From contig CAKOTD010000004.1 in the NCBI GenBank assembly GCA_934120015.1, positions 5,338 through 69,337 of the forward strand: a stretch of 64,000 bases of DNA, read 5' to 3'. Each line of letters opens with the position of its first letter. Within the stretch, counting starts at the first letter, position 1. This DNA is from an uncultured Bacilli bacterium (lineage in GTDB: Bacteria; Bacillota_I; Bacilli_A; RF39; UBA660). The notes under the pieces were generated by a model that did no database searches, was not told where the DNA came from, and saw nothing but the letters and a program-made list of their open reading frames with translations. The position numbers and the translations under genes were made by a program. Shown here piece after piece: positions 21,349 through 28,137 of this stretch.

Positions 21349-22086
21349 ATGGATGATAAAAATAAAGTAGAAAAAGTTAGTAAAATAAAGGTTATTAAAG
21401 AGTTTCTTTCTGACAAGAGAAATAAGGCTATTGTAAAATTGTGTGCATATTTTATATTCTTTTTTGTTATAATATTATTTATTAGATTATCAGATAAAGG
21501 AAAAAATATGATAGACAATAATGATATAGATTTACCACCTACAATAACAAATGGTATTAAAAATCTTAAGCAAAAGAGTAATTTCAAATATAAACTAAAT
21601 TATAGTATTGTGATAAATAATATAGAAAATAAAATAATTTTTGATTATGATTTTGAAAATAATGTTTATAAAATAAGTAATTTTAAGGGTGAAAACTTAA
21701 ATAATGAATTATTGTTAGTAAGTAGTGAATATTATAAAGATGAATATGGATGGTATTATATGATGGAAAGTAATAAGACCTATATGAATTATTATTTATT
21801 TGATGACCTTAAATTATTTTCACCAGATAATATATATAATTATCTATTAAAAAGTAATTATCAGTTTAAAAAGGAGGATCTAAATAATAATATTATAATT
21901 AATTCAATTATTTCAGTTGAGGACTTTTCATTATTAAATAACAATATTATTGAGGACAAAGATGACATTATTATTGAAACAACTACTAATATTGATGGTG
22001 AAGAATCTATAATGTTTAATCTTACAAATTATTATAAGAATATTGATAATTTAAATTCATATATCATATATATTGAAATAAATTAA
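21349..22086 (+). CDS. Hypothetical N-terminally membrane-anchored protein
   Basis: One TM helix (CAYFIFFFVIILFI), then an N/Y-rich domain. No recognisable motif. Confidence 0.5.
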   Translation: MDDKNKVEKVSKIKVIKEFLSDKRNKAIVKLCAYFIFFFVIILFIRLSDKGKNMIDNNDIDLPPTITNGIKNLKQKSNFKYKLNYSIVINNIENKIIFDYDFENNVYKISNFKGENLNNELLLVSSEYYKDEYGWYYMMESNKTYMNYYLFDDLKLFSPDNIYNYLLKSNYQFKKEDLNNNIIINSIISVEDFSLLNNNIIEDKDDIIIETTTNIDGEESIMFNLTNYYKNIDNLNSYIIYIEIN

Positions 22087-22094
22087 AAGCAGAC

Positions 22095-23849
22095 TTAATT
22101 GTCTGCTTTATTGTTTTCTCTTTCTCTATACCTTGATAAGCCTTTTTTATATTCATTTATAAAATTAATTGTATCATTTAATCCATAATCATCGAATTGA
22201 GGTTCATTATTTTTTTTCTCTTCATTTTCTTTTTTATTTTCTTCTAATTTTATATCAGAGTTTAAGTTGTTTTTCTTAGAAAACATTTGTTGCGCTTCAG
22301 CTAGAAATGATTCTAAATTATTGCTTCGTGAAATTCTTTTTTCTTCGGCTTGTTCATTATTACTTTTAGAGGGCGCATTTCTATTATTTGTAAATGATCT
22401 AAAATTATTTTCCTCTAACTTTTCTTCTTTAGGTAAATTACCATAACTATTTTTTAATATAGTAGAATTTATTTTATTATTGTTATTATTTTCTTCTACC
22501 ACCTTTTTAGAAATATTATCTTTCATATCTTTATTGATATTTTTTTCTATACTGACTTCATTTTCTTTTACATCATTAAACTTTTCTTCATTATTATGTG
22601 TATTTGATTTACTTATATTTGTATCATTAATTGCTTTTTCTAACCCATGTCCGCTGCGTAAGTCTTCATCATCTAATTCAATTAATTTAAGTATTTCTTC
22701 AAAAGTTGTTTTACCTTCAAGAACTTTTTCTAATCCATCTTGAAGTAATGTAGTAACATCATTTTTATAGACTAACTCACGAAGTGCATCCTTTCTAATG
22801 TTGTTACTAATAGCATCTTTTATTTCTTGATTTATTAGTAAAACTTCATGAATAGCAACACGGCCTTTAAATCCGTTATTACATTCTTCACATCCTTCGG
22901 CAGTATATAGTTCAGTAATATCTTTTCCTAGAACATTTTTAAACAATTCTTTTTCATAATCATTTGCTGGTCTTGTCTTTCGACATTTAGGGCAAAGCTT
23001 ACGAGCCAGTTTTTGTGAGATGATACCGGTCAAGGCACTTGCAAGCAAGTATCTTTCAACATCCATATCAAGTAAACGTTCAATTGTGTTAAGAGAGTTA
23101 TTGGTGTGAATTGTAGATAATACTAAATGTCCTGTAATAGAAGCACGAACTGCAATTCTTGCTGTTTCAGTATCACGAATTTCTCCAACCATTATAATAT
23201 TAGGGTCTTGACGTAATATTGAGCGAAGAGCACTAGCAAATGTTAATCCAATTTCACTATTAGTTTGAACTTGATTGACTCCTTCAATATTCATTTCTAT
23301 TGGGTCTTCAACTGTTATAATATTTGTGTCTTCTCGATTTAGTCTTTGCAAAATAGAGTACACAGTTGTAGATTTACCTGTTCCAGTAGCACCTGTTACT
23401 AATATAATACCATTTGGAACACTAATCATTTTGAGAACTCTTTTTAAGTTATTTTCACTAAATCCCAATTGATCAATACCAGTTACACTTAAAGAATAAT
23501 CCATAATACGAATAACAATTTTTTCTCCAAGATTTGTAGGCAGAGCAGAAACACGAAGATCTAAGTTAACATTATCTATTTTTCCCTTAATAGCCCCATC
23601 TTGTGGAAGTCTTGACTCAGTAATATTCATTTCTGATAAAATTTTAATACGAGTGACTAAATTCTTTTTTATATCATTTGGTACTTCAGTATAATCAATT
23701 AATTCCCCATCAATTCTTATTCTAACCTTCATAAAATTTTCATGTGGATCAAAGTGAATATCACTAGCACCTCTTTTAGATGCATCTATTAATATTTCAT
23801 TTACTATATCAACTACAGGCATTTTGTCATAGTCAAATTTTTTTAGCAT
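22095..23849 (-). CDS. GspE/PilB-family type II/IV secretion ATPase with a roughly 190-aa low-complexity C-terminal tail
   Basis: Walker A GATGTGKSTT, Walker B IIMVGEIRD, His box GHLVLSTIHTN, tetracysteine CPKC...CEEC. The last ~190 aa are N/K/E-rich. Confidence 0.88.
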   Translation of the reverse strand: MLKKFDYDKMPVVDIVNEILIDASKRGASDIHFDPHENFMKVRIRIDGELIDYTEVPNDIKKNLVTRIKILSEMNITESRLPQDGAIKGKIDNVNLDLRVSALPTNLGEKIVIRIMDYSLSVTGIDQLGFSENNLKRVLKMISVPNGIILVTGATGTGKSTTVYSILQRLNREDTNIITVEDPIEMNIEGVNQVQTNSEIGLTFASALRSILRQDPNIIMVGEIRDTETARIAVRASITGHLVLSTIHTNNSLNTIERLLDMDVERYLLASALTGIISQKLARKLCPKCRKTRPANDYEKELFKNVLGKDITELYTAEGCEECNNGFKGRVAIHEVLLINQEIKDAISNNIRKDALRELVYKNDVTTLLQDGLEKVLEGKTTFEEILKLIELDDEDLRSGHGLEKAINDTNISKSNTHNNEEKFNDVKENEVSIEKNINKDMKDNISKKVVEENNNNNKINSTILKNSYGNLPKEEKLEENNFRSFTNNRNAPSKSNNEQAEEKRISRSNNLESFLAEAQQMFSKKNNLNSDIKLEENKKENEEKKNNEPQFDDYGLNDTINFINEYKKGLSRYRERENNKADN

Positions 23850-23948
23850 GTATTTTCCATCCCCTTTATTCTAATTAGGACTAGTATTTATCCTGAAACT
23901 ATTATATAATATATTTAGGATAAAATACAAGTAAGAAGGGGAAAAATT

Positions 23949-24461
23949 ATGAAAAAAAACAATAATAAAGGTTTTATGCTTACAGAATTATTAGTAACAG
24001 CAACCTTAATATGTACGGTTTTAATCTTTTTGTATACACAATTTTACAATGTAAAAAAGGGGTATGATAGAAGTTTTAATTACAATACAGTAAATGGTTT
24101 GTATATACTTGATAATGTAAAAAAATTTTTAACTGAAAATGATTTGTCTGTTTTTAAATTACAATTAAGCAATAAAAATTATGTTGAATTAACTGAAACT
24201 GAAAATATATCATTAATGAGCAATCAAGATTATTTTAATAAAATGATTTCTTTTACTAATATAAAAAAATTATATTTTACCAAAGAAAATCTTGAATCAT
24301 TAAAAAATGAACTTAATTTAAATCCGATAGGTGAACTAGAATCCCTTAGAAAATTTGTAAATTATATTGATTATGATTCTAATGCAGGAGATAACTTATA
24401 TCGTTTGATTGCTGAGTTTAATGATTCTACATTTTCAACAATTTTATTAGGAGGGGAATAA
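23949..24461 (+). CDS. Prepilin-type (type IV pilin / pseudopilin-like) protein
   Basis: N-terminus KKNNNKG|FMLTELLVTATL has a class III signal: G at -1, E at +5 and a hydrophobic helix. Confidence 0.75.
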   Translation: MKKNNNKGFMLTELLVTATLICTVLIFLYTQFYNVKKGYDRSFNYNTVNGLYILDNVKKFLTENDLSVFKLQLSNKNYVELTETENISLMSNQDYFNKMISFTNIKKLYFTKENLESLKNELNLNPIGELESLRKFVNYIDYDSNAGDNLYRLIAEFNDSTFSTILLGGE

Positions 24462-24462
24462 T

Positions 24463-27156
24463 ATGAGAAATAGAAAGGGAGCAACAATTGTTGAATTAAT
24501 TGTTTCAATTACTGTTCTTCTTGTAATTGTTACATTTTTATTTCAAACAGTAATATCACTTAAAGAAGTCTACAATAGTTCTGGTATTAAAACAGAAATG
24601 CTTACAAAACAAGCCTTAATTAGTAAGATGATAAATAATGATCTTAGGTCAAAAAAAATTGAGCTTGCTACTACCTGTGGTGACAATAATTGTATTGCAT
24701 TTTATTTTGAAGATGGGACAAGAAAAACACTTGAATTAATAAAAAAGACTGAAGAAAGTCCTGCTTATTTAATTTATGGAGATTATAAAACAGAACTTAC
24801 AAAAAATAGTAATTTTGGTGATTATCAAATAAAATCCGAAACTATTTCTACCACGGCTAACTTAAATTATGATTCAATGCTTTCAATAGATATTCCTATT
24901 TTTCATTCGTTACTTCAAAATCAAGATTACGGAATAAATATTGTTTATCAATATGATAGTAAAGACACTTCAATTACTAATCTTGTTATTGGTGATAATA
25001 CTGATGTAAGTGATATATATTTAATTGGTTCGAATAATATGACATGGTATACAACAGTTCCATTTGAAGAACCTGGCTATTTTTATTTAGATAGTAATAA
25101 CAACTTAATCAAAGATAATAAGAGTAATGATGATATTAATGTACTAGCTAGTGAGATTGTAAATAATATTCAAACCATAACATATCAATCTAAAAAAAAT
25201 CCTGATGTAAAAAAAATTAGAACTATTACTTATATTAAATCAGAATATACATATGAATTAAATAATAGTTATCATTCATTTACAGTACCTGTTAGTGGAA
25301 CATATAAGATTGAATTATGGGGTGCAAATGGTGTTTCTAATTCTATTGGTTCTGGAGGGAAGGGTGCTTACACTAAAGGAAATATTTATTTAAATTCTGG
25401 TGAAAAAATATATATTTATGTTGGAGGAACTGGTTCAGGTGATACTGGTGGATATAATGGTGGAGGAAATATAACTACTGGGCAAAGTAATTTTAATGGT
25501 GCACCTGGTGGAGGTGCTACTGATATTCGTTTAGTAAATGGTAGTTGGGACTTAGAGGGTAGTCTTTACTCTAGGATAATGGTTGCAGCCGGTGGTGGAG
25601 GTGCATCATCAAGTGCCTGTGGCAGTTCCTTTAAATCCGGGGGCAATGGAGGTACTATTAATAGTAATAGTGCTAGTATTGGAGAGAAATGTACTGATAG
25701 TATTTGGACAATTGCCTACGGAGCAGACCAAACAACCGGTGGAACTATAGATGTATTTAACACTGATGGTTCAAAAATAGGAACATATCAAGCTGGTAAA
25801 TTTGGTTATGCCTCTTTTGCAACTGAATATACAGGTGATATTAGATCCGGTGGTGGAGGAGGATATTACGGAGGTACAAGTAGTGGATATGGTAGTTTTG
25901 CTACAGGTGGCTCTTCATTTGTATCTGGATGTGATGGATGTAAAGCAATTGATATTAAGGGAAATTCTGGAGAATCTAATATACATTATTCTGGAAAGAC
26001 CTTCTCTAATATAGAAATGAAATCAGAACATAATTTAGAAAGTGATAATGGATTTGCTAAAATATCATTAGTTGGTGTTTCATATTCAAATGATAATACT
26101 ATTGAACTAAATATTGAAGCTAAAAAAGCAAATTCAAAAACCTCAGTTGCAACAAATACATGGAGTAATGAACCTTTAGTGTTTACTATAACAAAGAATT
26201 TCTATGGTGATAGTAATTCTAAACTATATTACTGCAAAGATACAACTAATACTTGTGATCCTAATATTGAAACTATAAATAGAGGTGAATTTAGTATTAG
26301 TGATGTTGGAACATATTATATAAGATATAAATCAAAAGATAGTTCTTCAAAAGATAGTGCTATAAAATCCTTTAAAGCAAATGTCGATATAGTTTCTCCT
26401 AATATCATATATAACACAACATCTCTTGATTATGGAATAACAAATGCTGTTACTGTAACTGATGACAATTTTTCATATATGAATATAGTTGCATCATGTC
26501 CAAGTTGTAATATAAATCGTGAATATTTAAACATAAAAGATACAAATTATAGTATACCAACATTTAATAAAGCTGGAACTTGGAATTTAATTACAGAAGC
26601 TTATGATAAAGCAGGAAATAAGTCTACTAAAACAGAAGAATATATAGTTATGCCATCATTATCTGGAATAAAAATTGTCCCAAACAATGGAAGTGTTACA
26701 ATGACATGGGATGTTTATCAAGGGGCTACAAGATATCGTATTCAAAGATTGATAGAATCAACATGGACAACTATTGCACAGCCAACAGATACAACATATA
26801 CAGATTCTTCATTAACTAATGGAATTACTTATAAATACCGCTTTATAGTATATAATGGTACTAATTGGACTATACCAACAGATGCTTATAGTGTTGTACC
26901 AACAACAACTCCGCAAAATATTAAGGTTACTCTAAATAATAATAATGCTGTTATTACTTGGAACGCAGTTACTGATGCTACACAATATCGTGTTCAAAGA
27001 CTTAATGGAACAACATGGACTACAATAAGTTTTCCAACAACTACAACATATACAGATTCTAATTTAACAAGTGGAACAACTTATAAATATCGTGTCCTTT
27101 CTTATGTTAATGATACTTGGAGTGGCGTTTCTGAAGTTGTTAGTATAACACCGTGA
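24463..27156 (+). CDS. Giant prepilin-like protein: N-terminal pilin helix, glycine-rich domain, Ig-like region, two FN3 repeats
   Basis: MRNRKG|ATIVELIVSITVLL prepilin motif. YKIELWGANG...GGKGAYTKG...IYVGGTGSG...GGYNGGG...GGGATDIRL...MVAAGGGGAS glycine-rich domain. Two C-terminal (W..V.gAT.YR.QR...TW.T......TYTDS.LT.G.TYKYR) FN3-like repeats. Confidence 0.8.
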   Translation: MRNRKGATIVELIVSITVLLVIVTFLFQTVISLKEVYNSSGIKTEMLTKQALISKMINNDLRSKKIELATTCGDNNCIAFYFEDGTRKTLELIKKTEESPAYLIYGDYKTELTKNSNFGDYQIKSETISTTANLNYDSMLSIDIPIFHSLLQNQDYGINIVYQYDSKDTSITNLVIGDNTDVSDIYLIGSNNMTWYTTVPFEEPGYFYLDSNNNLIKDNKSNDDINVLASEIVNNIQTITYQSKKNPDVKKIRTITYIKSEYTYELNNSYHSFTVPVSGTYKIELWGANGVSNSIGSGGKGAYTKGNIYLNSGEKIYIYVGGTGSGDTGGYNGGGNITTGQSNFNGAPGGGATDIRLVNGSWDLEGSLYSRIMVAAGGGGASSSACGSSFKSGGNGGTINSNSASIGEKCTDSIWTIAYGADQTTGGTIDVFNTDGSKIGTYQAGKFGYASFATEYTGDIRSGGGGGYYGGTSSGYGSFATGGSSFVSGCDGCKAIDIKGNSGESNIHYSGKTFSNIEMKSEHNLESDNGFAKISLVGVSYSNDNTIELNIEAKKANSKTSVATNTWSNEPLVFTITKNFYGDSNSKLYYCKDTTNTCDPNIETINRGEFSISDVGTYYIRYKSKDSSSKDSAIKSFKANVDIVSPNIIYNTTSLDYGITNAVTVTDDNFSYMNIVASCPSCNINREYLNIKDTNYSIPTFNKAGTWNLITEAYDKAGNKSTKTEEYIVMPSLSGIKIVPNNGSVTMTWDVYQGATRYRIQRLIESTWTTIAQPTDTTYTDSSLTNGITYKYRFIVYNGTNWTIPTDAYSVVPTTTPQNIKVTLNNNNAVITWNAVTDATQYRVQRLNGTTWTTISFPTTTTYTDSNLTSGTTYKYRVLSYVNDTWSGVSEVVSITP
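26653..27153 (+). repeat. Tandem ~250-nt duplication encoding the two FN3-like modules
   Basis: Units of about 83 aa share W..V..AT.YR.QRL...TWTTI..PT.TTYTDS.LT.G.TYKYR. The DNA is similar but diverged. Confidence 0.7.
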
Positions 27157-28137
27157 CTATAAGATTATAACCCATATATCAAAAAGAAAAAAAACTATTA
27201 AACTGGATATTAATGCATGGCATACTCTAGCAGTTAAATAAGGCAAATATTTAATTTTAGTATCACTTATAATACTTATAACTTGCATATGAACGCTAAA
27301 TCCACCAAAAGATATTATAAGTGTACTAATTATTGTTTTAAGCTTAAGAGGAATATTTAATAATCCAACATATTTTAATCCTTGTGTCATTTCTATTAGT
27401 CCATTTAATATACTTTGATTGTAATTATTTAAGTTTACGTTATTATCAATGATTGTAGTAACACATAAAAACATCGTTACTACTCCTAAAATTAATAAAA
27501 GAGTATTTATAGTATTTAATAAAGAATTAGTAATAATAGTTCCAAATTTTAATTTATTATTAATTCTTTTATTATGCATATTATTTATAGCTCTTTTTAT
27601 AGAAGTTTTTTCCTTAGCACATCCTTCTGGTTCGTAATTTCTAAACATAAGGCCAATAACTATGTTTCCTATATAATGACTAAATAAAACAAGTATTCCT
27701 GCCTCTTTATTTCCTAGAAAAGTAAGAGCAATACTACCCATTATAAATAGTGGATTAGAAAAGTGTGTAAACATTAATAATTTTGATGCCTCATTTTCAT
27801 TTAAAATTCCTTTTGTATATAATTCTTTTACATATTTAGCATTACTAGGGAATCCAGAAATCATACTCATAATAAATACAAATGCCCCTTCACCTTTTAC
27901 TTTAAATAATTTATTCATAATAGGCTTAAATAGTTCACCAAGTAATTCAACAAAGCCAAAATTAATTAAAAGTTCAGATAAAACAAAAAACGGAAACAAT
28001 GAAGGAAATATATTGTTTGTCCAAATACCAAATGAAAATATAACTGTATCCATTATTGATTTTGATTCTGTAAGAATTTCAAAACCAATAAAAATAAATA
28101 TAATAATATATAAAATACTAATAAATTTTTTATTCAT
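27157..28137 (-). CDS. ylbJ: Sporulation integral membrane protein YlbJ (nucleoside-recognition/Gate domain family)
   Basis: FGIWTNNIFPSLFPFFVLSELLINFG...ISGFPSNAKY pattern; neighbour of a ylbL-like gene as in Bacillus. Confidence 0.75.
   Translation of the reverse strand: MNKKFISILYIIIFIFIGFEILTESKSIMDTVIFSFGIWTNNIFPSLFPFFVLSELLINFGFVELLGELFKPIMNKLFKVKGEGAFVFIMSMISGFPSNAKYVKELYTKGILNENEASKLLMFTHFSNPLFIMGSIALTFLGNKEAGILVLFSHYIGNIVIGLMFRNYEPEGCAKEKTSIKRAINNMHNKRINNKLKFGTIITNSLLNTINTLLLILGVVTMFLCVTTIIDNNVNLNNYNQSILNGLIEMTQGLKYVGLLNIPLKLKTIISTLIISFGGFSVHMQVISIISDTKIKYLPYLTARVCHALISSLIVFFLFDIWVIIL

What the first reader, a model, noticed from the sequence alone, without database searches (positions are those of the whole stretch)
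23949..27156. 897-aa prepilin-like protein carrying a glycine-rich domain and FN3 repeats, paired with a small prepilin
Both ORFs begin with class III (type IV prepilin) signals: KG|FMLTE and KG|ATIVE, each with Glu at +5 and a hydrophobic helix. The second is roughly 5-6 times the size of a normal pilin. It contains a ~250-aa glycine-rich module (WGANG...GGKGAY...VGGTGSG...GGYNGGG...GGGATDIRL...VAAGGGGAS) of the type annotated as a glycine-rich domain in bacterial surface and phage proteins and in the ALK/LTK ectodomain. Ig-like sequence and two FN3-like repeats follow. A pilin-anchored display of such a module, possibly a tip adhesin or a pseudopilus-tethered surface protein, is not a standard Com or type IV pilus component.
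Basis: partly seen in the sequence, partly recalled or inferred. Interest (0 to 1): 0.62.

Follow-up and report, generated by a model that had tools for sequence, protein, structure and literature searches.

The report
Core minor pilin carrying ALK-type domain
The two genes encode the conserved minor-pilin pair of a stripped-down type IV pilus in an uncultured small-genome gut bacterium, and in this lineage the second pilin has acquired an ALK/LTK-type glycine-rich binding domain plus Ig/FN3 spacers, which makes it a probable pilus-tip adhesin of the known but little-studied "modular pilin" kind.

Summary
Both ORFs lie at the stated coordinates and both start with class III (prepilin) signals. 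The 897-aa protein has an ALK_LTK_GRD domain (Pfam E 3e-37) and two FN3 repeats.

The pair sits head-to-head with a PilB/GspE-type ATPase. In relatives, PilC and PilD lie directly beside that ATPase. In this genome they are on another contig, next to comEA and comEC. I found no PilT or PilM.

The N-terminal 180 residues form a predicted pilin lollipop. This module is a single-copy core minor pilin, present in 137 of 151 genomes of the order. Among the 150 best cluster representatives:
- 60 are bare pilins.
- 35 carry a GRD.
- 45 carry some other long extension.

In the relatives I scanned, the extensions on this pilin or on its small partner include ConA-like lectin and Fib_succ_major domains. 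In two genomes a third, Glu5-less pilin-like gene follows, giving the order I-J-K as in gspIJK or comGE-GF-GG.

My reading is a tip-displayed modular minor pilin whose GRD binds a ligand. That is inferred, not shown. The pilin-GRD architecture is already listed in Raynaud et al. 2021, so this is a new member of a known kind and of moderate interest.

The parts
22095..23849 (-). PilB/GspE-type assembly ATPase (584 aa), transcribed divergently from the pilin pair. The T2SSE core is residues 8-387. It is followed by a low-complexity N/K/E-rich tail of about 195 aa.
   Evidence: Pfam T2SSE E 1e-128. NCBIfam scores are GspE 488 bits and PilB 485 bits against ComGA 263 bits, all below the equivalog cut-offs. 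The same divergent arrangement is seen in 18 of 24 related loci examined.
23850..23948 (.). 99-bp divergent intergenic region between pilB and the pilin operon. Presumably it holds both promoters.
   Evidence: Read directly from the sequence. The consensus promoter scan is uninformative in this 25% GC DNA. Promoter function is inferred only.
23949..24461 (+). Small core minor pilin (170 aa, 'I-like'). Leader MKKNNNKG, then FMLTE with Glu5.
   Evidence: Translation. Weak ComGE N-terminal match, E 0.003, 17.6 bits against a cut-off of 49. 24 distinct homologues were recovered from the fetched loci, and wherever a PilB match is present in the locus they lie between pilB and the P0002-type pilin. 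They show a conserved KGF.L.E.L ... YN motif.
24463..24480 (+). Leader peptide MRNRKG of the 897-aa prepilin. The predicted prepilin-peptidase cleavage site is after Gly6.
   Evidence: Sequence. Gly6, Thr8 and Glu11 are invariant in 76 homologues. Cleavage itself was not tested.
24481..25002 (+). Pilin module (residues 7-180, 'J-like'). It has a 54-residue alpha1 helix, a beta-sheet head and a conserved Cys72/Cys77 pair.
   Evidence: AlphaFold2 gives helix 10-63 and strands 66-164 at pLDDT around 90. A profile of this module finds one copy in 137 of 151 genomes of the order and 714 cluster representatives at E<=1e-10. There is no significant Foldseek match to solved pilins.
25009..25245 (+). 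Ig-like linker domain (residues 183-261, DUF5011/Bact_surface_Ig-like type).
   Evidence: Modelled as a beta-sandwich at pLDDT 86-94. The family profile matches BT_2262 (5fq3) at E 1e-5. PF16403 is precomputed on many homologues.
25246..26085 (+). ALK/LTK-type glycine-rich (TG/GRD) domain, residues 262-541, 22% Gly.
   Evidence: PF12810 E 3.3e-37. The family profile hits ALK, LTK and SCD-2 GRD structures at E 2e-8 to 7e-7. pLDDT is above 90 throughout and mostly above 95. Foldseek finds the LTK TG domain 7nx1 at E 4e-8 and ALK 7mzy, 7lrz and 7ls0. It also finds phage proteins with the same fold at E 1e-16 to 1e-10.
26086..26667 (+). Poorly modelled middle region (residues 542-735), probably two Ig-like domains.
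   Evidence: Only weak Pfam matches: Bact_surface_Ig-like E 0.03 and Big_13 E 0.2. pLDDT is 24-60. It is 43% identical over 101 aa to part of the giant pilin on C24 of the same genome.
26668..27156 (+). Two tandem FN3 domains (residues 736-815 and 816-897) and the stop codon.
   Evidence: Pfam fn3 scores 30.7 bits for repeat 2 and 16.5 bits for repeat 1. PDB sequence hits are 3mpc at E 4.5e-5 and FN3con at E 5e-4 and 1e-3. Foldseek finds titin and tenascin FN3 tandems. The repeats are 49% identical to each other.

Best explanation
The 897-aa protein is a modular type IV minor pilin.

Proposed mechanism (inferred by analogy, apart from the domain composition and gene inventory cited in the evidence):
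1. It is made as a prepilin anchored in the membrane by its class III signal.
2. The genome's PilD-type peptidase removes the six-residue leader.
3. The pilin module, together with the small partner pilin encoded just upstream, is built into the priming or tip complex of a minimal type IV filament. The parts identified for that filament are the divergently encoded PilB-type ATPase, an N-terminally extended PilC platform protein and small GspG/ComGC-like candidate major pilins (none confirmed as the major subunit). No PilM or PilT was found.
4. A Glu5-less pilin-like protein encoded elsewhere probably joins the same complex.
5. [quoted passage not shown]
6. There the glycine-rich domain acts as the ligand-binding (adhesive) module. 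The ligand is unknown.

The same filament may also serve DNA uptake, because comEA and comEC are present and this is the only PilB/PilC/PilD-class machine in the genome.

The pilin module is ancient and near-universal in this family of small-genome gut Bacilli. The glycine-rich domain is one of several interchangeable cargo modules grafted onto it.
For: Class III signal:
- G-1, T+2 and E+5 are invariant in 76 homologues.
- 145 of 150 cluster representatives carry the motif.

Fold:
- The predicted lollipop has a 54-residue alpha1 helix plus a beta head at pLDDT around 90.

Machinery in the same genome:
- Peptidase_A24 at 58.7 bits, above the cut-off.
- PilC.
- A PilB-type ATPase immediately upstream and divergent.
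- No PilM above the cut-off.
- Only three T2SSE ATPases, two of them in Tad-like loci.
- ComEC and ComEA 8-10 kb upstream of pilC on C17.

Synteny:
- The order PilC-PilD, divergent PilB, small pilin, this pilin, convergent ylbJ-like gene recurs in distant relatives.

The pilin module is a core component:
- One copy in 137 of 151 genomes and 80 of 87 genera.

The cargo is interchangeable:
- Of the 150 best representatives, 60 are bare pilins, 35 carry a GRD and 45 carry other long extensions.
- The orthologous pilin pair carries ConA-like lectin (Laminin_G_3) or Fib_succ_major modules in other genera.
- The lectin architecture matches that of the glycan-binding tip pilin PilC of S. sanguinis, which is stabilised by the small pilin PilA (PMC9934059).

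Gene order:
- In two genomes the order is I-like, J-like, then a Glu5-less K-like gene. This matches gspI-J-K and comGE-GF-GG.

The GRD as a binding domain:
- Pfam E 3e-37.
- The fold matches the ligand-binding domains of ALK and LTK.
- It also matches many phage proteins.
Against: - No experiment shows cleavage, assembly or binding.
- The Pfam N_methyl score is just under its cut-off, and residue +1 is Ala rather than Phe.
- The pilin head has no significant Foldseek match to any solved pilin; the best E is 0.17.
- Profile search against PDB sequences finds only weak alpha1N similarity, E 0.03. The I/J/K assignment therefore rests on gene order and the Glu5 pattern alone.
- The NCBIfam ComGF model does not hit. 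ComGE hits the partner only weakly.
- The FN3/Ig domains lie distal to the GRD, not between the pilin and the GRD. That is unusual if they were mere spacers.
- pilC and pilD are not adjacent in this genome. They sit on another contig.
Confidence: 0.7

Rival explanations
1. Membrane-tethered display without polymerisation. The class III signal is cleaved or simply retained as an anchor. The protein stays in the cytoplasmic membrane as a monomer. The Ig, GRD, Ig and FN3 domains reach through the wall like an ordinary surface protein and are never incorporated into a filament.
For: - The protein is long and multi-domain, with FN3/Ig modules shared with other surface proteins of the genome.
- At least eight pilin-headed large proteins exist in a 1.3-Mb genome. 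That could mean the prepilin route is used as a general anchoring device.
- The pilin head has no match to solved pilins.
Against: - The head module is conserved as a bare pilin of about 170 aa in many genomes. A cargo-less anchor has no obvious use.
- It is strictly linked to pilB and to a partner pilin.
- Glu5, which is needed for subunit docking in filaments, is invariant.
Confidence: 0.14
2. Competence (Com-type) pilus minor pilin. The essential role of the pair would be DNA capture at the tip, as for ComGD/ComGF in Streptococcus sanguinis. The GRD would be a secondary ornament or itself a DNA or nucleotide-polymer binder.
For: - The machine has the minimal four-component make-up of Com pili, with no PilM or PilT.
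- ComEA and ComEC are present near pilC/pilD.
- The organism has a reduced genome, so DNA scavenging would be valuable.
- The partner pilin gives a weak ComGE match.
- This reading largely overlaps with the best explanation and does not exclude it.
Against: - The ATPase and platform score higher with the GspE/PilB and GspF/PilC models than with ComGA and ComGB. All NCBIfam Com equivalog cut-offs are missed.
- The gene order is not comGA-GG.
- Orthologues carry lectin modules, which points to glycan or protein ligands.
- The GRD is not basic: K+R 5.7% against D+E 7.5%.
Confidence: 0.1
3. Pseudopilus of a secretion system (T2SS-like). The pair would form the tip of a piston that exports proteins across the wall.
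For: The ATPase, the platform and several small pilins score best with the GspE, GspF and GspG models.
Against: - The organism belongs to the Bacilli, so it is presumably monoderm. No secretin was looked for.
- All Gsp scores are far below the equivalog cut-offs.
- A large adhesin-like cargo on a piston tip is not a feature of known T2SS.
Confidence: 0.03

Closest known systems
Modular type IV pilins of Streptococcus sanguinis: PilC (pilin + ConA-like lectin, stabilised by the small pilin PilA) and PilB (pilin + vWA) (PMC8179133, PMC9934059)
   Same: - A class III signal and a small pilin module with a functional domain grafted on the C-terminus.
- The gene is paired with a small non-modular minor pilin.
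- Tip display is predicted.
- Orthologues of this very pilin pair in other genera carry the same Laminin_G_3 lectin module.
- The census in PMC8179133 already lists IPR012902-PF12810 architectures.
   Different: - The cargo here is an ALK/LTK-type glycine-rich domain followed by Ig and FN3 domains. No pilin with this cargo has been studied.
- The carrier pilin head has no detectable similarity to solved pilins.
- The machine lacks PilT and PilM, which S. sanguinis T4P have (statement about S. sanguinis from my own knowledge).
Tip complex of four minor pilins: GspH-I-J-K of T2SS, and ComGD-GE-GF-GG of the Com pilus (T4dP) (PMC12153270)
   Same: - Adjacent I-like and J-like pilin genes, followed in some relatives by a Glu5-less K-like gene.
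- A minimal machine of peptidase, ATPase, platform and pilins, as in T4dP.
- comEA and comEC are present.
   Different: - None of the Com or Gsp equivalog models reaches its cut-off.
- The gene order around the ATPase is divergent rather than a comGA-GG operon.
- The minor pilins carry large cargo modules.
ALK/LTK extracellular TG (TNF-like + glycine-rich) domain, Pfam PF12810 (PDB 7nx1, 7mzy, 7lrz, 7ls0, 7lir)
   Same: - The sequence profile matches.
- The predicted fold matches.
- In the animal receptors this is the cytokine-binding domain.
   Different: - Only 14-20% identity, and TM-score normalised to the target of at most 0.49.
- There is no kinase, no EGF-like domain and no ALKAL-like ligand gene.
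- The domain is mounted on a pilin, and its ligand is unknown.
GRD-containing phage structural proteins (BFVD models, auto-annotated 'receptor protein-tyrosine kinase')
   Same: The same GRD fold, at Foldseek E 1e-16 to 1e-10. The hit list also contains 'Tip attachment protein J' and tail-fibre entries, but I did not check which domain those match; the query also carries FN3 and Ig domains.
   Different: They are mounted on phage proteins rather than on a pilin. None has a characterised receptor that I could find.

Membership tests
Type IV pilin (class III signal peptide protein) | Short basic leader ending in Gly, then about 21 hydrophobic residues with Glu at +5 | tested here: met
   MRNRKG|ATIVELIVSITVLLVIVTFLF. 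G-1, T+2 and E+5 are invariant in 76 homologues. 145 of 150 representatives carry the motif. Caveat: Pfam N_methyl scores 17.8-19.8 bits against a cut-off of 21.2, although several homologues carry PF07963.
Type IV pilin (class III signal peptide protein) | Lollipop fold: an alpha1 helix of about 50 residues carrying a beta-sheet head | tested here: met
   AlphaFold2 gives helix 10-63 and strands 66-164, with pLDDT around 90 in the full-length model and 84.5 mean for the module alone. This is a prediction only.
Type IV pilin (class III signal peptide protein) | Detectable similarity of the head to solved pilins | tested here: not met
   Foldseek against the PDB gives a best E of 0.17 with no pilin among the hits. 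The sequence profile against PDB sequences hits only alpha1N of geopilin and PilE1, at E 0.03-0.5.
Type IV pilin (class III signal peptide protein) | Cognate prepilin peptidase, assembly ATPase and platform protein in the genome | tested here: met
   Peptidase_A24 at C17:29972-30304, 58.7 bits. T2SSF at C17. T2SSE immediately upstream. All three are clustered with the pilin pair in relatives.
Type IV pilin (class III signal peptide protein) | Leader cleavage, N-methylation and incorporation into filaments | not testable with these tools
   Needs biochemistry.
Modular pilin (sensu Raynaud et al. 2021) | A pilin module plus at least one extra domain that is defined independently of type IV pilus biology | tested here: met
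   PF12810 GRD and fn3 lie C-terminal to the pilin module. The definition and the listing of IPR012902-PF12810 are in PMC8179133.
ALK_LTK_GRD (PF12810) | Score above the Pfam gathering threshold | tested here: met
   129.2 bits against 24.5, covering profile positions 7-242 of 243.
ALK_LTK_GRD (PF12810) | Fold similarity to solved ALK/LTK TG domains | tested here: met
   Foldseek finds 7nx1 at E 4e-8 with probability 1.0 and TM(target) 0.49, and also 7mzy, 7lrz and 7ls0. The TM-score is moderate, so the similarity is real but distant.
Com pilus (T4dP) components ComGA, ComGB, ComGE, ComGF | NCBIfam equivalog models reach their cut-offs | tested here: not met
   ComGA 263 against 300. ComGB 141 against 240. 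ComGE 17.6 against 49 for the small pilin. The 897-aa pilin has no ComGF match; the small partner matches ComGF only at E 0.96 (9.7 bits against a cut-off of 80).
Com pilus (T4dP) components ComGA, ComGB, ComGE, ComGF | Minimal machine (peptidase, ATPase, platform, pilins) without PilM/N/O or PilT | tested here: met
   No PilM above the cut-off. The only other T2SSE ATPases lie in Tad-like loci. PilN and PilO were not searched.
Fibronectin type III | Pfam fn3 above the gathering threshold | tested here: met
   Repeat 2 scores 30.7 bits against 25 when scanned alone. Repeat 1 scores 16.5 bits but is 49% identical to repeat 2.

The most novel reading that the evidence does not exclude
In a whole family of reduced-genome gut Bacilli (0.6-1.6 Mb), one minimal Com-like type IV filament may be the main interface with the outside world. 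Its I-, J- and K-like tip pilins would form a plug-and-play platform onto which GRD, lectin, Fib_succ_major and unknown modules are grafted in different genera. The same filament would then do two jobs. It would take up DNA through ComEA/ComEC. It would also attach the cell to host mucus or to partner microbes on which these auxotrophs depend. On this reading the bacterial GRD is a receptor-binding head shared with phage proteins and with the animal ALK/LTK receptors.
Probability: 0.3. Interest if true: 0.6.

Novelty: new member of a known kind. Interest (0 to 1): 0.4.

Why it matters
Modular pilins explain how a simple filament gains new functions, but only a few have been studied (vWA, lectin, CofB-type).

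- The bacterial relatives of the ALK/LTK ligand-binding domain have no known ligand. Here the domain sits on a conserved, single-copy tip pilin, in a position that lectin modules occupy in sister genera. That gives a concrete, testable hypothesis for what the domain does.
- The lineage is an abundant but uncultured group of small-genome gut bacteria. Their way of attaching to the host or to partner microbes is unknown. This pilus is nearly universal among them, so it is a sensible first target.
- The work also defines a carrier pilin family that current pilin models barely detect. It has 714 cluster representatives at E<=1e-10.

Tried and rejected
- Foldseek of the isolated pilin module against the PDB, to assign it to a GspI/J/K or ComG class, gave nothing significant.
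- A sequence profile of that module against PDB sequences found only weak alpha1N matches.
- phmmer of the whole protein against PDB sequences missed ALK/LTK altogether and found only FN3. A family profile was needed.
- Pfam and NCBIfam gave no family for the small pilin beyond a weak ComGE N-terminal match.
- No family was found for the 245-aa upstream ORF or for the 360-aa N-terminal extension of PilC.
- The promoter and terminator scan of the locus was uninformative. It found fewer promoter-like sites than in shuffled sequence.
- Literature searches for PF12810, and for 'glycine-rich domain' together with pilin, found no functional study.
- I considered rapid cassette-like swapping of the GRD within this clade. 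It is not supported. The GRD and the pilin module diverge in step: 60% and 61% identity in close homologues, 41% and 42% in distant ones.
- I considered a poly-G or poly-A phase switch, of the kind reported for another pilin gene of this genome. The 99-bp intergenic region has no such tract.
Full report
**Observation**

One nucleotide separates them, and a GGAGGGG ribosome-binding site lies inside the end of the first gene. They are almost certainly co-translated from one transcript.

The translations start MKKNNNKG|FMLTELLVTATLICTVLIFLY and MRNRKG|ATIVELIVSITVLLVIVTFLF. Each has a short basic leader ending in Gly, then a hydrophobic stretch with Glu at +5.

Pfam puts ALK_LTK_GRD (PF12810) on residues 278-536 of the large protein, at E 3.3e-37. 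The last FN3 repeat passes the Pfam threshold when scanned alone, at 30.7 bits. The first repeat scores 16.5 bits but is 49% identical to the second. The N_methyl model scores 17.8-19.8 bits, just below its 21.2 cut-off. The window has about 25% G+C.

**Surroundings**

It encodes a 584-aa T2SSE ATPase (Pfam E 1e-128). This ATPase scores higher with the GspE and PilB models (488 and 485 bits) than with ComGA (263 bits), and all three scores are below the equivalog cut-offs. The other neighbours are housekeeping genes: priA, fmt, a ylbJ-like Gate protein, a ylbL-like Lon/PDZ protease and mutS.

The genome is 1.31 Mb in 52 contigs and about 90% complete. It holds:
- one prepilin peptidase (Peptidase_A24, 58.7 bits) directly after a 773-aa PilC on contig C17;
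- comEA and comEC 8-10 kb upstream of these.

The only other T2SSE ATPases sit in Tad-like loci on C21 and C8. No PilM reaches its cut-off. The organism therefore has a single PilB/PilC/PilD-class machine with the minimal composition that Pelicic and co-workers describe for Com pili (PMC12153270). Its sequences are not canonical Com proteins.

**Relatives and synteny**

The large protein has 1,726 database relatives at E<=1e-3 among the 8,000 candidates scored. The closest (54-64% identity) are mostly about 550 aa and cover residues 1-540. Of the 124 proteins on file at that point (120 search hits plus the window's own four), 100 start with a class III signal.

Contigs carrying three of them show a conserved arrangement. 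The two distant relatives have PilC, PilD, a divergent PilB, a small pilin, this pilin, a convergent ylbJ-like gene, then ylbL and mutS. The closest relative, like this genome, lacks pilC and pilD at this site.

In this genome pilC-pilD remain behind dnaG-sigA-trmK-yqfQ on C17. That is the same left flank as in the distant relatives, so a rearrangement has split the cluster.

Named genome records with relatives are labelled 'uncultured Tenericutes', 'Bacilli' or 'Mycoplasmatota' gut MAGs.

**The pilin module is a core component**

I built a profile of residues 1-182 only. It finds exactly one copy in most genomes of the order: 137 of 151 genomes and 80 of 87 genera, all 0.6-1.6 Mb in size. In many of them the ORF is only 150-210 aa, so it is a bare pilin.

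Against 1.84 billion cluster representatives the profile finds 714 proteins at E<=1e-10. Of the best 150:
- 60 are bare (200 aa or less);
- 10 have short extensions;
- 35 are long with a GRD;
- 45 are long without a GRD;
- 145 carry the class III motif.

I annotated twenty loci from across the family. In 15 of them a PilB gene, a small partner pilin and this pilin are adjacent; the other five lack one or both neighbours within the stretch fetched. Either pilin can carry cargo. Pfam on the non-GRD extensions finds ConA-like lectin (Laminin_G_3) on one or both pilins in two genera, Fib_succ_major in a third, and no known domain in the rest.

The lectin architecture is that of S. sanguinis PilC. 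PilC is a glycan-binding modular pilin that the small pilin PilA stabilises, and it is modelled at the pilus tip (PMC9934059).

**A third, Glu5-less partner**

The genome's only other GRD protein (C10:11739-13052, 437 aa) starts MRKLNQNG|FAIASILY. This is a pilin-like helix without Glu5, as in GspK and ComGG (that property of GspK and ComGG is from my own knowledge).

Its N-terminal 158 residues find relatives in 59 of 101 family genomes. Most matches cover only the first 55 residues or so. In two genomes the gene directly follows the pair. The order there is divergent PilB, I-like + Ig + GRD, small J-like, then Glu5-less K-like + Ig + GRD. This mirrors gspI-J-K and comGE-GF-GG, and it is my basis for calling the window's two proteins I-like and J-like.

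The assignment is an inference from gene order. No profile or fold comparison supports it.

**Structure**

AlphaFold2 on a 76-sequence alignment gave mean pLDDT 77.7. By region:
- a 54-residue helix (10-63) followed by a beta-sheet head (66-164), pLDDT around 90;
- an Ig-like domain (185-258);
- a very confident GRD (262-541, pLDDT mostly above 95);
- a poorly modelled stretch (545-735);
- two FN3 domains.

Foldseek finds the LTK and ALK TG/GRD structures (7nx1 at E 4e-8; 7mzy, 7lrz, 7ls0) and FN3 tandems. In the viral library it finds phage proteins with the GRD fold at E 1e-16 to 1e-10. The family profile hits ALK, LTK and SCD-2 sequences at 2e-8 to 7e-7, and BT_2262 for the Ig linker.

The pilin module modelled alone (pLDDT 84.5) has no significant match in the PDB. 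I report that as a negative result.

**Evolution of the parts**

Within the GRD-bearing clade the pilin head and the GRD diverge in step. Identity to this protein is 61% and 60% in close homologues, and 42% and 41% in distant ones. The Ig linker is more variable, at 49% and 26%. The GRD was therefore inherited together with the pilin in this clade and was not swapped recently.

The C-terminal extension is different. Close relatives end at about 550 aa or carry unrelated tails. The Ig and FN3 modules found here recur in a 1,075-aa pilin (C24) and a 1,056-aa protein (C6) of the same genome. That points to local domain shuffling.

The genome has at least eight large pilin-headed proteins. One is a 336-aa pilin with a Laminin_G_3 lectin module, and others carry BNR, FN3 or Ig modules.

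**Interpretation**

The best-supported reading is a modular minor pilin, processed by PilD and built into the tip complex of a minimal type IV filament. The GRD would be the exposed binding module.

Shown here:
- the signal motif and its conservation;
- the predicted fold;
- the domain identities;
- the machinery in the genome;
- the synteny;
- the core status of the pilin module;
- the interchangeability of the cargo.

Inferred:
- cleavage of the leader;
- polymerisation into a filament;
- the tip position;
- the adhesive function and the ligand.

The rivals are:
- an unpolymerised membrane tether;
- a mainly DNA-capturing Com-type role, which overlaps with the main reading rather than excluding it;
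- a secretion pseudopilus.

**Comparison with what is known, and novelty**

Modular pilins are an established category (PMC8179133). The supplementary census of that paper already lists IPR012902-PF12810 architectures, and even a PilY1 with PF12810. I found no functional study of any bacterial GRD.

Earlier notes of this scan report pilin-GRD fusions in about twenty other genomes, with the same verdict. I treated them as leads only.

Three things are new here:
- this particular carrier is the lineage's near-universal J-like core minor pilin;
- it sits in a conserved pilB-I-J(-K) unit of a minimal machine;
- the GRD alternates with lectin and other modules at the same position.

That is a new member of a known kind, of moderate interest.

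Noticed in passing
own genome C10:11739-13052 (outside the window; locus L092:739-2052): A 437-aa protein with a pilin-like N-terminus lacking Glu5 (MRKLNQNG|FAIASILY) and a GRD (PF12810, E 2e-45). In two related genomes its homologue directly follows the pilin pair. It may be the GspK/ComGG-like cap of the tip complex.
   Followed up: partly
window 22095-22680 (- strand, C-terminal part of the ATPase): The PilB-type ATPase ends in a low-complexity tail of about 195 aa rich in N, K and E, with no domain hit. PilB homologues in relatives range from 427 to 706 aa, so this tail is variable.
   Followed up: no
own genome C17:27325-29646 (L091:10325-12646): The PilC platform protein is 773 aa. Its first 360 residues or so have no Pfam match. 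Relatives also have extended PilC proteins (535-674 aa).
   Followed up: partly
window 21349-22086 (+): A 245-aa ORF with one predicted membrane helix and no Pfam or NCBIfam hit lies between fmt and the 3' end of pilB. A 250-aa ORF occupies the same place in a relative (L006). A bidirectional terminator-like hairpin lies at 22086-22109.
   Followed up: no
own genome C34:5210-6220 (L098:710-1720): A 336-aa pilin with N_methyl plus a Laminin_G_3 (ConA-like lectin) module. This is the same architecture as the glycan-binding pilin PilC of S. sanguinis.
   Followed up: partly
own genome C1:60923-64369, C11:2579-7990, C19:3151-5097, C24:7630-10857, C2 and C9 contig ends: Six further large proteins (595 to 1,803 aa) start with canonical KGFTLIELL prepilin signals. 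The four scanned with Pfam (C1, C11, C19, C24) have N_methyl above its cut-off. Their cargo includes Ig, BNR and FN3 domains, with a sub-threshold CBM_5_12 hit on C11. Pilin-headed display is a genome-wide habit here.
   Followed up: partly
own genome C21:17400-22463 and C8:5580-10902: Two Tad-like loci. C21 has a TadA-type ATPase, TadB/C-like T2SSF proteins, a ParA/CpaE-like protein and TadE-like small proteins. C8 has a 364-aa T2SSE-like ATPase with small membrane proteins.
   Followed up: no
window 27154-27159: The stop codon of the large pilin gene abuts the stop codon of the convergent ylbJ-like gene (27157-28137, - strand). There is no spacer, and no terminator-like hairpin was detected.
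   Followed up: no
own genome C6:23119-26289 (- strand): A 1,056-aa protein ends in an FN3 domain 49% identical to the second FN3 of the large pilin. This suggests recent exchange of stalk modules among surface proteins.
   Followed up: no
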